From Heptranchias perlo (taxonomy: Eukaryota), in the NCBI RefSeq assembly GCF_035084215.1, contig NC_090335.1, positions 52,266,001 to 52,330,000 of the forward strand: a stretch of 64,000 bases of DNA, written 5' to 3'. Each line of letters begins with the position of its first letter. Positions within the stretch are counted from its first letter, which is position 1. A program made the position numbers and the translations under genes. Positions 9,440 through 23,559 of this stretch are shown here, piece after piece. Below the pieces are notes generated by a model that had not been told where the DNA came from, searched no databases, and saw only the letters and a program-made list of their open reading frames with translations.

Positions 9440-9469
9440 ATAGGAGAATAATTTGGAATGGCTTACATC

Positions 9470-9700
9470 CTGTCTTAACTTGGATACTCAGCTGAGGTCC
9501 CAGCAGGTAGACACTATTAGGGAAATGGCAACCAAGACTTGTATGATTAGGAAAATATATGACGCTAAACGTACCCATGGGGATTCACCAGCATTATAGA
9601 CATTCTCCATTAGCATCGAGGGTGTGTATACCTTTCTCTATTTTCTTGTTAGCCTGCTGCACTTTGATCAGATGTTTCTGAGGTGACACTTCTATCCAAG
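9470..9700 (-). pseudogene. C-terminal heptad region and transmembrane anchor of env-like gene C
   Basis: My translation: QKHLIKVQQANKKIEKGIHTLDA, then (other frame) SPWVRLASYIFLIIQVLVAISLIVSTCW. Confidence 0.6.
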
Positions 9701-9770
9701 ATGCTTTTAAGAGTGAATGATAAAGGGGCAATGGGGTGCCCAAATCAAATTACAGCCTGTAATGCTTCCT

Positions 9771-11308
9771 ACATAAGAACATAAGAAATAGGATCAGGTG
9801 TAGGCCATACGGCCCCTTGAGCCTGCTCTGCCATTCAACAAGATCATAGATAATCTTCTGCCTCAACTCTACTTTCCCGCCCTATCCCCATATCCCTTGA
9901 TTCCCTTAGTGTCCAAAAATGGGATAGAGAATTCCAAAGATTCACAACCCTCTGAGTGAAGAAATTTTTCCTCATCTTGGTCCTAAATGGCTGACCTCTT
10001 ATCTTGAAACTATGCCCCCTAGTTCTAGACTCTCCACCCAGGGCAAACAGCCTCTCAGCATCCACGCTGTCAAGCCCTCCAAGAATTTTATACATTCCAA
10101 TGAGATCACCTCTCATTCTTCGAAACACCAGAGAATATAGGCCCATTCTACTCAATCTCTCCTCATAGGACAACCCTCTTATCCCAGGAATCAATCTAGT
10201 GAACTTTTGTTGCACCCCCTCTAAGGCAAGTATATCCTTCCTTAGGTAAGGAGACCAAAACTGTTCACAGTACTCCAGGTGTGGTCTCACTGGAGCCCTA
10301 TATTATTTCAGCAAGACCTCCTTACTCTTATAGTCCAACCCCCTTGCAATAAAGGCTAACATACCATTTGCCTTCCTAATGGCTTGCAGTACATGCATGT
10401 TAACTTTCTGTGATTCGTGTACAAGGACACCCATATCCCTCTGACTAGTCTCTCACCTTTTTAAAAAAAAATTCTGCTTTTCTATTCTTCCTACCAAAGT
10501 GGATAATTTTACATTTCCCCACATTATACTCCATTTGGCACCTTCTTGCCAAATCACTTAACCTGTCTATATCTCTTTGCAGCCTCTTTGCGTCTTCCTC
10601 ACAGCTTACTTTCCCACCTTGTTTTGTATTGTCAGCAAACTTGGACACATTACACTCAGTCTCCTTATCTAAATCATTGATATAAAGTGTGAACAGCTGA
10701 GGCACAAGCACTGATCCCTGCAGCACCCTACTAGTTTTAGCCTGCCAACCTAAAAATGACCCGTTTATTCCTACTCTCTGTTTTCTGTCGGTTAACCAAT
10801 TATCAATCCATGCTAATATATTACCTCTACTCCCATGAGCCCTAATTTTGTGTAACAACCTGTGTGGCACCTTATTGAATGCCTTTTGAAAATCTAAATA
10901 TACTACATCCACTGGTTCCCCCTTATCTACCCTGCTAGTTACACCCTCAAAAAACTCCAATAGATTTGTCAAACACTTTCATAAAATCGTGTTGATTCTG
11001 CCTAATCATATTATGATTTTCTAAGTGTCCTGTTACTACATCCTTAATAATAGATTCTAGCATTTTCCCTACCACTCATGTCAGGCTAACTGGCCTATAG
11101 TTCCCTGTTTTCTCTCTCCCTCCTTTCTTGAATAGTGGGGTTACATTTGCTACCTTCCAATCCACAGGGACCGTTCTAGAATCTAGGGAATTCTGGAAGA
11201 TCAAAACCAATGCATCCACTATCTCTGCAGCCACCTCTTTTAAAACCCTAGGATGCATGCCATCAGGTCCAGGGGATTTGTCAGCTTTTAGTCCCATTAA
11301 TTCCTCCA
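9771..11308 (-). mobile_element. CR1 LINE (RT region to 3' tail), frameshifted, inserted in the ERV
   Basis: ORF pieces KSPGPDG, NYRPVSLT, YLDFQKAF, QGSVL, KFADN, RPHLEYC; tail ACATAAGAACATAAGAA on +. Confidence 0.95.
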
Positions 11309-12550
11309 TCAAGTTCCCACGGATCTGCAGTCTGGTGGTGTCATGATCAACTACAATTACCAGGATGACCCCATGAGAGGGAATTACACATCCCATTGCC
11401 CAGTCCATGGAGCTCAATCAATAGCCCCAAAGATTTCCTGGGCCCCACGCTGTTTGCAGGGCACTTCAGCAATATGCACCTTTGCAAAGCGCCTTACCAG
11501 ACACAGGTTAATTTCGCTGGGTAACCATTTGATCAATTGTTTATCCGTTATCCAAGTGGGTAATTTTCCCTAAACTATGTTTCTCAGCCCTTCTGCTATT
11601 CTCTCCTGCCAATGGCTCAGATACATGCTGCACACCACCGCCTTACTTGCCTGAGATGTAATGGTCTCTTGATTGTATATGATTTAATTAATCTTATCCT
11701 GGCTTGCATGGACACCCTGGACTATTTTATTAAAGGACAAGAGACCCTCTGACCCCTCATCGATCAGGTCCAGGTTACCCTCATTCATTTTAGTTAGTAA
11801 CTTCTTCAGTTGTCCGATCAGACTTCCCTGATAATAATGATTTTCTATATCCAATGTTAAATACTGCTCCTGTTGCAGCTTCCCCAGCCACCTAATCGGT
11901 GATAGATCTGGCTTGCCGGGTGCGCGCGATTCGGTCCCAATCCCATCCTTCCTTCCACTGTCTCCCTGCTGTCTGCTTGTGGAACCCGTGTAATATCTGA
12001 ATCAATACGGCACAAGCCCAATTAACATAATGTATGTCACATAAACCTTGCAGAAGCATTACATTGCTTAAATCGACAATAACTGGGACCGCCTCAGATT
12101 TCACATGTACACAACTTGATGAGTAGCCTGAACCACCAATCCGTTACACATTCCATCTGAAAACAAGACCCCGTCACAACTAGATTCAACTGTGTGATAT
12201 TTTTGTTGTACTTGAATCTTTATAGAATTCTTTCTAACTAGTGACAGATTCTCTAATTCTAGTGCTACAGTGCAACTATATCGTCCCTCATGTCGCTCAT
12301 GAACATGGGGAAAATAAAGCTGTCACACTAGTTCAGCCACCCCGTTGGTTTCAGGAAGCACGATATATGGCACATCGTAAGAGAATGGGTATATCGTTTC
12401 TCCACCCACTCGGTACACACCCCAATGATCAGAGGATTGTATTGTTAGTAGAAGTTGCATCACCCTTTGTCGGAATGGGATATCCACACCATCCTTCCAT
12501 TTGAGATGGAATAAAAACCCGCCTGTCCATTGGTGGGCAGTGACCATTCG
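11309..12550 (-). pseudogene. env-like gene C ectodomain (Ig-like motif, furin-type site RQAR, fusion-peptide-like segment)
   Basis: My translation: LYFPHVHERHEGRYSCTV...VPVIVDLSNV...RTRQAR|SITD*VAGEAATGAVFN/LDIEN...VVCSMYLSHWQERIAEGLRNIV*GKLPTWITDKQ. Confidence 0.6.
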
Positions 12551-21159: not shown

Positions 21160-22675
21160 TCATTGTTTCTCTGCTGGGGACGTTACATTACTCCAGCAGT
21201 CTATGGCGTAATGACTCATTTTATGACATCGGAAACACCTGTTGTTACGCCTATCATTTACCATATTCCTCCCACTATTACCCCAACCTATCAGCCCCTC
21301 TACAGCCAATATTGTTTTTTTCTGTGGCACTTTGGGCATATGGTCTTTTAGGGTTCTCCAGGCCTGAATTGCTGCCTCCAAGAGATTCATCCACTGGGTC
21401 GTTTTATTGACACTTACGCCAAGGGCGGTTTTCACCAGTGGGTGTAACTGAGACAGGAATACCTGTTTAAACACCTTAGAGTAGCTGGTTGAAGCCGCTA
21501 CCCTTCTGGGTTGAGTCAGGTCAAACAGGTCCCATAACCCATTTCCAAAGGCTCCCTGATGTCCCTGAGTGGTTTGTCTGCATTGACTAATGACATTAAT
21601 TTGATCCATACCCAACATGTGCATAATGTCGATTTTAACCCCCTGCAAGGTGGTGGCAGGGACGTGGATATTGGGGTTAAGGGAGACCTTAATTGTTTGT
21701 TGGCAGGCAGTCCATATTACTCTTTTTTGGTCTATTTCGGACAATTCCTGGTGGGCCTTATTAAAAGAGCTAATTCGGCGAGACACCTCTATTGGATTGT
21801 CCCCCTCCTTAATGGATCCTAGCTCCAGAGACAGAGGCTCTGTCTTGGGAGAGGAAATTGATTTTTCCTCCTGAACTGTACTAGTCACGTTACCCTGCAC
21901 ATTACGCCTGGGGGTAGTGGTAATCACATTCACAGGTATGGGTGACCCTCCGTATTCAGGACTGACATAGTCCTGACCTTGGTGATCCTCATTCCCCATT
22001 TCTCCTGCCAGACCATTCCAATCTACCTCACTTTCCCAGTCTGGATTTCAATTTGTATCTTCTGTTCCTCCCATGACTCCTCGTGTTACAGCAGCCACCA
22101 AAGCCCCTTATCGGCCCAATTTGCCCTATAACTCCTGAATCATTAAATTAAACCCTGTGTGGTCTACTGAATTCATAGGTCGACACATAATCTCCCTTAA
22201 AGCCCTCTACAGTCGACGAGTTCCGACTCTAGTCTCCCATTTTTCTCTGTCCAGTTGCAGTTTTAGCCATGAACTGCTGACTCTCCAGCATAGTCAAAAC
22301 ATCAATCAGACTTTCAACATCTCATTTTCATCTGCCTGTCTCTTAATTTCCCTATCTCTTTCATCTGTCTCTTAATTTCCCTATCTTTTTTGTCTGACTG
22401 TCTCTTAGTTTCCTCTAACTGATTCCTATTTTCCTCTTTTAATTGTTTAATACGTTCCTCACTCTTAAGTGCACACAAGTTTGCTGCCCACATAAGGGCC
22501 CTTTTACCAACTCTCTGCTTCATCTTTTTATTTTGAATTTGATCCTCGGCCCATTCTATGGTGTCTCATAGGCCTCATCCTTCTCCACTATTTTGGAGAT
22601 TAATTCTACAGGTTCCTCGGACCCCTTTAGTTCCTTTCTCAGTTTCTTTTCTAACATTTCGTGGAAATTAGCCAC
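21160..22675 (-). pseudogene. gag-like gene with N-terminal coiled coil and CCHC zinc knuckle
   Basis: ORF 21160-21999 ends in CFRCHKMSHYAIDC (Cx2Cx4Hx4C); upstream charged coiled-coil frame EERIKQLKEENRNQLEETKRQ; lies directly after the PBS. Confidence 0.8.
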
Positions 22676-22816
22676 AATCACTCATACTAAACAAAACCTC
22701 ACTTCTGAAATTTTAACAATTCACGCCTTTTGTGATCAAATTAAATCTGTCGAATTTTAAATGTATTTTCCTTTGGGTATTTGATATTATGTCAACACGA
22801 AACATTGATTAGTCAC

Positions 22817-22834
22817 CTCCTGACTGGCTTGCCA
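22817..22834 (-). promoter_or_regulatory. Primer-binding site, tRNA-Arg(ACG)-like
   Basis: TGGCAAGCCAGTCAGGAG, 3 nt from the LTR end; 16/18 match to the complement of the vertebrate tRNA-Arg 3' end as I recall it (TGGCGAGCCAGCCAGGAG). Confidence 0.8.
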
Positions 22835-22837
22835 ATT

Positions 22838-23559
22838 TGTAACAGATTCAGATATGACACCAAATGGTAATCAATGTCTCATTTATTAATAGTTAAATTA
22901 AACATGTAAAAGTATAAAATATTAGACAACAAAGATCAAAACAATATTACCCCATTTGATCTCCGGGCAACAGTCGTAATTAAGTTTGCAATGCGGTCGT
23001 TCCAAGTTTTCTGACAGTGAGGTAGACTTCCAATTGTCAGGTGATCTTCTGACAGCTGGGAGGTATTCACTGATCCCTCTGCCCCGAGCTCCAAAATATG
23101 TTGGGTTTTTACGCTCCCCCTGGCAGGAACCTCACACCATATATGGAGTTGTTATTCATAAGACCCTTATAGATTAACAAAGTTGTTTTTCAAATAATTC
23201 AAAATGATCAGCTTGTTTTAACATTACTCATCTTACCACAAGTCCCTTTGCAAGGTTGCTTTTCAAGGTGGACAGTTTGTTTGACTGCACTTATCCAGCT
23301 ATCTCGTCATTGTCCTGTTCTTATTGCTATCTTTGAATTATTGTTCCGCCTTTTGGGTCATTGTTCCTCTTTTACCACATAGCTGCCTTGCCTCACCATG
23401 GGGGTAACAAGGGTCAGTCACTAGTCAAGGGTTAACAATTTACAATTCAGCAAAATAAGCCGCACACTCAACAAAATATGCAGCACAGCCTGCACAACAT
23501 GATGGTTAGTAACATTAAGAAAAAGATGTCAATTTTTCCCAATTTCCAATAGTCTTACA
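22838..23559 (-). mobile_element. 5' LTR (~720 bp)
   Basis: Inverted TGTAA...TTACA termini, with the PBS abutting one end; the outer boundary is inferred because no second LTR is available for comparison. Confidence 0.65.

What the first reader, a model, noticed from the sequence alone, without database searches (positions are those of the whole stretch)
9440..23559. Pol-less LTR element with gag and apparently three tandem fusion-glycoprotein-like genes
Seen: an LTR, a tRNA-Arg PBS and a coiled-coil/CCHC gag, then about 1.2 kb with no PR, RT or IN motifs, then three successive decayed glycoprotein-like blocks (A ~18950-19922; B ~18905-18091 plus 12859-12650; C ~12550-11309 plus 9700-9470). 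B and C resemble each other (QLEGLLKEM..DVISE..GSLVLIK...ILDKQ vs QLKKLLTKM..DLIDE...ITDKQ). A and C each have a Gly-rich fusion-peptide-like stretch ending N..(V/I)E, followed by a C...G..P block. The putative cleavage site lies early, before a long C-terminal subunit, as in paramyxovirus/pneumovirus F rather than classical SU/TM. Established: lokiretroviruses have Env related to Mononegavirales F proteins and a coiled-coil (SMC-like) gag-associated region. Inference: this is a loki-like non-autonomous element carrying several envelope paralogs. I know of no description of that architecture, and I do not recall this lineage being reported in cartilaginous fish.
Basis: partly seen in the sequence, partly recalled or inferred. 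Interest (0 to 1): 0.8.

Follow-up and report, generated by a model that had tools for sequence, protein, structure and literature searches.

The report
Shark retrovirus relic, three envelope genes
A decayed retrovirus in a shark genome has lost its replication enzymes and instead carries pieces of three long-diverged cell-entry (envelope) genes in a row, which suggests a hitch-hiking viral element that collected envelope genes from different viruses, although only this one broken copy could be examined.

Summary
The core observation holds. On the minus strand lie one LTR-like block, a tRNA-Arg-type primer site, a gag with coiled coil and one CCHC knuckle, no pol, and three tandem env-derived blocks. 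A profile built only from intact shark and frog proteins hits all three (E 8e-17, 3e-14, 1e-22). A model of the shark protein matches paramyxo/pneumovirus F and foamy Env. The blocks are old paralogues, not a local duplication: third codon positions are saturated, and a clade of all three is rejected (AU p<0.001). A groups with frog envs, B and C with shark envs.

Corrections: none of the three is complete. A and B have no recognisable membrane anchor, B lacks the cleavage site and fusion peptide, C has an unnoticed Ig-like domain, and cleavage is not early. Lokiretrovirus membership cannot be tested without RT; a snakehead-retrovirus-like origin fits about as well. No 3' LTR and no second copy were available.

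Best reading (0.6): a non-autonomous ERV that gathered envs by recombination and then decayed.

The parts
22838..23559 (-). 5' LTR-like block, 722 nt, TG...CA ends; no partner LTR in the window
   Evidence: ends; no second copy
22817..22834 (-). Primer-binding site, tRNA-Arg type (assignment recalled, 16/18), 3 nt after the LTR end
22048..22700 (-). Decayed gag N-terminal half with coiled coil; 29-nt tandem repeat at 22326-22413; candidate splice donor at 22702
21160..22047 (-). Stop-free gag capsid-nucleocapsid ORF (295 codons); loki-like capsid C-terminal motif starting at 21471; one CCHC knuckle at about 21249-21190
   Evidence: fold model uninformative
19982..21159 (-). Spacer in place of pol: short helical gag tail, acidic stretch, remainder unassigned; no pol and no detectable env leader or Ig domain
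19090..19981 (-). env block A (groups with frog envs): probable SU core, fusion peptide, HR1, internal deletion of about 70 residues, part of the beta-rich region (significant down to 19167); no recognisable HR2/TM; candidate splice acceptor at 19933
18091..19069 (-). env block B, first part (groups with shark envs): SU core, furin site and fusion peptide deleted, HR1, beta-rich domains
12863..18088 (+). Nested DNA transposon (DDE_Tnp_4; Harbinger type by recalled features), 16/16 terminal inverted repeats, 3-nt target duplication; splits B
14109..15382 (-). Intronless SFR1/Mei5 ORF (14600-15382) followed by a young LINE 3' end, inserted in the transposon
12705..12859 (-). env block B, second part, to about residue 624 of the shark homologue; no HR2/TM detected beyond it
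11311..12508 (-). env block C, first part (groups with shark envs): Ig-like domain, SU core, RxxR site, fusion-peptide-length stretch, HR1, then an internal deletion of about 140 residues
9773..11310 (-). Nested 5'-truncated LINE (RVT_1; CR1 type by recalled features); splits C
9440..9772 (-). env block C, second part: HR2, the only TM helix of the three blocks, cytoplasmic tail
8560..9439 (+). Young LINE 3' fragment abutting the end of C; the 3' LTR is missing beyond it

Best explanation
This is one old, dead copy of a non-autonomous endogenous retrovirus of a shark. It kept the cis signals (LTR, tRNA-Arg-type primer site) and gag, lost pol, and would have been copied by the RT and integrase of a pol-bearing helper (inferred from ERV biology). 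The space of pol and env is filled by three class Ib (paramyxo/foamy-type F) envelope genes of one family found in sharks and frogs (family shown by sequence; fold shown on a low-confidence model of a relative). The three diverged long ago under protein-level selection, in at least two viral lineages (shown). They most likely came together by reverse-transcriptase template switching between co-packaged genomes (inferred). Only the last one, C, keeps the plan of a membrane-anchored fusogen; A and B survive as anchor-less fragments, so they were passengers or at most secreted decoys (inferred). Deletions, a DNA transposon and three LINE pieces then broke the copy up (shown).
For: All three blocks match intact shark and frog proteins. 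All listed PDB Foldseek rows for the shark protein's model are paramyxo/pneumovirus F or foamy Env, 28 at E<=0.001. Codon-position identities 1/2/3 are 0.37/0.43/0.22 (A-B), 0.37/0.48/0.25 (A-C) and 0.40/0.49/0.30 (B-C) over 102-127 codons. A clade of A+B+C is rejected, AU p=0.0007 and 0.0003 with two anchoring schemes; the branch separating B, C and the shark proteins from A and the frog proteins has support 99.5/99 and 99.7/100. The blocks share one orientation, are separated by at most about 100 nt (A|B) and 200 nt (B|C) once insertions are set aside, and have no primer site or room for an LTR between them.
Against: Only one copy was seen; there is no 3' LTR or target duplication to prove that everything from 23559 to 9440 moved as one unit. 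At least three internal deletions unrelated to the junctions show that this locus loses DNA readily, so both junctions could be post-insertion deletions. No helper was found; the gag ORF has no hit among proteins of 162-517 residues. The fold model is weak (mean pLDDT 39, query TM-scores 0.07-0.15) and the VIA search found only helical hairpins. The tree has only 4 intact references.
Confidence: 0.6

Rival explanations
1. The ancestral element carried three complete, working env genes as a deliberate multi-envelope cassette; all truncations happened after insertion.
For: Each block retains a different part, and B and C each keep their own SU core (A suggestive, 2/200). The deletion density is high enough to explain the junction losses. 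A candidate splice acceptor sits at the start of A (1 of 3 in that 1.3-kb region, so weak).
Against: No splice acceptor by the same simple scan before B or C. No leader or Ig domain detected for A (138/200). Saturated divergence and A's frog affinity show separate origins, not co-function. None of the 4 intact relatives is a tandem multi-env protein.
Confidence: 0.2
2. A compound relic: two or three ordinary single-env proviruses inserted close together in the same orientation, and later deletions removed the LTRs, gags and pols between the envs.
For: Different ancestries of A versus B/C; a deletion-rich, insertion-rich locus; no 3' LTR; no second copy examined.
Against: It needs same-strand insertions within a few kb, and two large deletions that each end inside env on both sides and leave no trace of LTR, primer site or pol. 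The junctions are not at homologous positions and the DNA is too diverged for homologous recombination.
Confidence: 0.17
3. Local tandem triplication of one env after integration.
For: Tandem order and the same orientation.
Against: No nucleotide similarity among the blocks, third positions near random, monophyly rejected. A B+C clade alone is not rejected (AU 0.25 and 0.23), but their third positions are also near saturation.
Confidence: 0.03

Closest known systems
Lokiretroviruses (Wang and Han 2021, PMC7947760) and the non-autonomous BHIKHARI elements (bioRxiv 10.1101/2024.03.25.586437)
   Same: F-related Env; coiled-coil Gag N-terminus; capsid C-terminal motif similar by eye; pol-less members exist (Bik-2 is gag only).
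   Different: Loki Envs seen have a signal peptide, a short N-terminal part and no Ig domain; loki Gag passages seen show no CCHC; one env per consensus genome; 0 of 3 chondrichthyan genomes positive; Bik-2 has no env.
Snakehead retrovirus (SnRV) and SnRV-like ERVs, including elephant shark CmiERV lineage I (PMC4422223)
   Same: Gag with a coiled-coil N-terminus and one zinc finger (PMC2717909, PMC1224870); present in cartilaginous fish; tRNA-Arg primer site (recalled from Hart et al. 1996, paper not held).
   Different: SnRV has pol and a single env (recalled). No SnRV sequence could be compared; the primer motifs tried were not found in the CmiERV supplement text (line breaks may hide them).
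Foamy virus Env and paramyxo/pneumovirus F, class Ib fusogens (PMC11468914)
   Same: Fold match of the shark relative; the frog relative has a foamy-like hydrophobic leader and two furin sites.
   Different: Foamy Env inserts its receptor-binding domain just upstream of the second furin site; here an Ig-like domain lies N-terminal to the SU core. Foamy Gag has no zinc knuckle.
Unnamed intact env-like proteins GCC29952.1 (Chiloscyllium punctatum), KAM8960540.1 (Pelodytes ibericus), XP_031752662.1 (Xenopus tropicalis) and a Pristiophorus japonicus fragment
   Same: Closest sequences: 34-37% identity to their best-matching block; same domain order.
   Different: Single, open ORFs annotated only as hypothetical, uncharacterized or Ig-like; genomic context not available.

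Membership tests
Lokiretrovirus | RT groups in the loki clade; pol with tether plus RNase H and CGIN1-like integrase | not testable with these tools
   No pol in the element; no vertebrate genome collection to find a helper.
Lokiretrovirus | Env related to Mononegavirales F | tested here: met
   Foldseek on the model of the shark relative, a low-confidence model; the feature is shared with foamy and walleye Envs. Pfam PF00523 itself was not hit.
Lokiretrovirus | Env layout: signal peptide, short N-terminal subunit, RXKR, fusion peptide | tested here: not met
   C and the intact relatives have a 190-275-residue N-terminal part with an Ig-like domain, against published loki Envs read in passages. 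A is unresolved.
Lokiretrovirus | Loki-type Gag capsid | tested here: inconclusive
   A motif read off published Gags matches once in the window's six frames, at 21471. The motif was drawn after the fact, there was no SnRV or other control, and the gag has an extra CCHC.
SnRV-like ERV | Pol clusters with snakehead retrovirus | not testable with these tools
   No pol.
SnRV-like ERV | Gag with N-terminal coiled coil and a single zinc finger | tested here: met
   against descriptions; coiled coil judged by eye.
SnRV-like ERV | tRNA-Arg primer site | tested here: inconclusive
   Site located; both the tRNA assignment and the SnRV feature are recalled.
Foamy (spuma) virus | Gag without zinc knuckle | tested here: not met
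   CCHC present; family feature.
Class Ib (F-type) fusogen | SU/F2 core, furin site, fusion peptide, HR1, beta-rich domains, HR2, TM in order | tested here: met
   Met for the intact relatives. Each window block has only a subset.
Non-autonomous LTR element family | Paired LTRs, target duplication, several dispersed copies of the same structure | not testable with these tools
   3' LTR absent from the window; no shark genome searchable.

The most novel reading that the evidence does not exclude
A family of pol-less shark retroviruses replaced pol with a cassette of three working, differently targeted F-type envelopes captured from separate viral lineages, from an undescribed Ig-domain env family shared by sharks and frogs, and was spread by a helper virus: a multi-envelope satellite retrovirus, possibly the first loki-related lineage in cartilaginous fish.
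Probability: 0.2. Interest if true: 0.85.

Novelty: new variant of a known kind. Interest (0 to 1): 0.6.

Why it matters
Retroviruses are described with one env. An element stacking three divergent envs in place of pol would show whole-env capture being repeated within one genome. The locus also leads to a class Ib env family with an N-terminal Ig-like domain and intact members in a bamboo shark and two frogs. That family bears on how foamy, loki, epsilon and paramyxovirus fusogens are related, and its open ORFs are candidates for recent or host-retained envs. The value is limited by having one decayed copy that could be a local accident.

Tried and rejected
Word-seeded searches with block C and with the gag ORF found nothing (length limits exclude Gag-Pol). 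The profile search recovered only 2 already known proteins among 8000 scored candidates. PDB sequence searches with A, B, C, the env profile and gag gave nothing significant. Rfam found nothing. The gag model (pLDDT 39) gave no usable fold match. The VIA search of the env model returned only helical hairpins, best Z 7.5. ESM Atlas gave one unnamed chordate cluster at 0.82 and 0.84 for the two intact relatives, a lead only; it gave no result for the window's own sequences. MAFFT misaligned single-frame fragments; those alignments were not used.

Rejected: a TM at the end of A; a signal peptide at 19922 as established (it aligns to the SU beta-strand, 2/200 with one reference and 113/200 with the other); an early cleavage site as a family trait; a possible 3' LTR start near 8515 (6-nt match only); local triplication.

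Literature: searches listed no multi-env element or this env family, judged from titles and abstract openings. Searches were swamped by irrelevant matches and are no evidence. Most subscription journals are not in the library. I recall that Xenopus XTERV1 was drawn with two env ORFs; this is unverified and could be a partial precedent. Viral and metagenome contig collections stayed unchecked; the prokaryotic genome collection was not used.
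Full report
1. Layout. The element lies on the minus strand from 23559 to 9440. After setting aside a 5.2-kb DNA transposon (12863-18088; 16/16 inverted repeats, 3-nt target duplication, DDE_Tnp_4) and a 1.5-kb LINE (9773-11310; RVT_1), about 7.35 kb remain. 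It opens with a 722-nt TG...CA block, 3 nt, and an 18-nt primer site, which I assign to tRNA-Arg from memory. No second copy of this block exists in the window by BLASTN or Smith-Waterman; a young LINE piece abuts the 3' end. The host is a shark: an SFR1 copy nested in the transposon clusters at 90% identity with a Heptranchias perlo protein.

2. gag and the missing pol. The N-terminal half is decayed and coiled-coil-like by eye. Positions 22047-21160 are a stop-free 295-codon ORF with one CCHC knuckle (Pfam E=0.0016, below the curated cut-off). None of the 12 minus-strand frames scanned hit a pol family at E<=1, and the 1.2 kb after gag cannot hold a pol. That spacer remains mostly unassigned: no env leader or Ig domain was detectable (82/300 and 138/200 shuffles).

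3. The three blocks are env homologues. Compared directly, only B-C is clearly above chance (60 against a maximum of 49 in 120 controls); A-C is borderline and A-B is not significant. A profile of C and B fragments searched against 1.84 billion representatives returned 4 proteins at E<=0.001: a 739-aa Chiloscyllium protein, a 723-aa Pelodytes protein, a Xenopus tropicalis protein and a Pristiophorus fragment. That query came from the window, so I rebuilt a profile from the 5 database proteins alone (two of them nearly identical). All 10 of its hits in six frames of the window fall in A (E=8e-17), B (3e-14) or C (1e-22). Frameshift-aware scores against the shark and frog proteins were A 78/206, B 353/158 and C 374/120, with null maxima of 47-53 in 12 shuffles each.

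4. They are F-type. An AlphaFold model of the shark protein, from a 7-row alignment, is weak overall (mean pLDDT 39; 44-72 by ten-residue block over residues 381-580). Foldseek still gave 28 PDB hits at E<=0.001, and every listed row to rank 50 is a paramyxovirus, henipavirus or pneumovirus F or a foamy Env. TM-scores are low and the VIA search did not confirm it. In the viral library, 24 hits at E<=0.001 include walleye epsilonretrovirus and feline foamy Envs, baculovirus F and some unrelated proteins. So F-likeness is supported but does not single out lokiretroviruses; the foamy-F link is published (PMC11468914, abstract and passages).

5. What each block retains. A: probable SU core (2/200 with the shark reference, 113/200 with the frog one), a clear fusion peptide (0/300), HR1, a deletion of about 70 residues, then a short beta-rich piece. 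The hydrophobic run taken for its anchor fits B's SU core better (0/300; anchor reading 27/200). B: SU core, no furin site or fusion peptide (9 codons for about 44 residues), HR1 and beta-rich domains to about residue 624, no anchor found. C: an Ig-like domain (alignment to the shark protein from 12508, 0/200; 12 of 12 PDB hits at E<=10 are Ig-superfamily receptors, best whole-chain E=2e-4, no single domain significant), SU core (0/300), an RxxR site and a stretch of fusion-peptide length recognisable only by eye (203/300), HR1, a deletion of about 140 residues, HR2, TM and tail. Cleavage in the intact relatives is after residue 275 or 276 of 739 and 272 of 723, so it is not early.

6. They are old paralogues. 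Identity at codon positions 1/2/3 is 0.37/0.43/0.22 (A-B), 0.37/0.48/0.25 (A-C) and 0.40/0.49/0.30 (B-C): protein-level constraint with saturated third positions, though anchoring on a protein favours this pattern somewhat. Trees with 4 references (P0003 dropped as a near-duplicate of P0005) separate B, C and the shark proteins from A and the frog proteins (99.5/99 and 99.7/100). They reject a clade of all three (AU p=0.0007 and 0.0003) under both a block-specific and a balanced anchoring; a B+C clade is not rejected.

7. How it most likely worked. Shown: cis signals, gag, no pol, three same-strand env fragments of at least two lineages with at most 100-200 nt between them and no primer site in the gaps. 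Inferred: replication in trans by a helper, and serial env capture by template switching. Only C has the plan of an anchored fusogen, so A and B were probably passengers or secreted decoys (0.6). Three once-complete envs (0.2) and a compound relic of separate proviruses (0.17) remain open, because the locus has at least three internal deletions unrelated to the junctions and only one copy was seen.

8. Family. Lokiretroviruses are defined by RT phylogeny (PMC7947760, parts 1-3 of 4 read, plus supplement passages from a file cut when stored), which cannot be tested here. They were found in 0 of 3 chondrichthyan genomes. For loki: the capsid C-terminal motif, by eye, and pol-less relatives in zebrafish (bioRxiv 10.1101/2024.03.25.586437, passages). 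Against: a different Env layout and a CCHC not seen in the loki Gag passages. SnRV has a coiled-coil Gag with one zinc finger (PMC2717909 and PMC1224870, passages), SnRV-like ERVs occur in elephant shark (PMC4422223, part 1 of 2 read), and its Arg primer site is recalled (paper not held). I put loki-related and SnRV-like at about even odds. Other papers seen as passages only: PMC13709493, PMC10699275, PMC4977317, 10.1101/2024.03.17.585361, 10.1101/2023.10.26.564294; PMC9040795 by a term search with no hits. bioRxiv supplements were not seen and may hold relevant elements.

9. Novelty. Searches listed no multi-env element or this env family; searches were uninformative, and the library lacks most subscription journals. 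A recalled two-env drawing of XTERV1 is unverified. Verdict: a real and unusual architecture, a new variant of non-autonomous ERV, unproven as a family. Interest 0.6.

Noticed in passing
window 21160-22047 (-): The gag capsid-nucleocapsid ORF is stop-free for 295 codons while the env blocks carry about 0.032 stops or frameshifts per codon; the chance of so long a clean run in about 1800 codons is 0.003. This could mean later selection or host retention. The exact ATG-to-stop protein is not in the collection.
   Followed up: partly
window 14109-15382 (-): An intronless SFR1/Mei5 ORF (Pfam E=7e-40; present in NCBI/UniRef) is joined to a LINE 3' end that is 99% identical to the copy at 9087-9417. 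It looks like a recent mRNA-LINE chimeric retrocopy, inserted in a transposase gene.
   Followed up: partly
window 45304-48944: A 3.6-kb near-perfect palindrome (98-99%, 9-nt centre) made of two head-to-head copies of an RT ORF, one open for 533 codons. Penelope-like with a GIY-YIG end by recalled motifs.
   Followed up: partly
P0002 (KAM8960540.1) residues 25-65 and 269-272: The frog env has a foamy-like layout: internal hydrophobic leader, first furin site, Ig-like domain, SU core, second furin site. The shark protein P0001 has no N-terminal hydrophobic segment as annotated.
   Followed up: partly
window 59132-61010: A second, more distant copy (about 70% identity) of the DNA transposon family that interrupts block B.
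   Followed up: no
window 22702 and 19933 (-): A consensus splice donor just before gag and an acceptor just before block A, the usual env arrangement; simple scan, weak evidence.
   Followed up: partly
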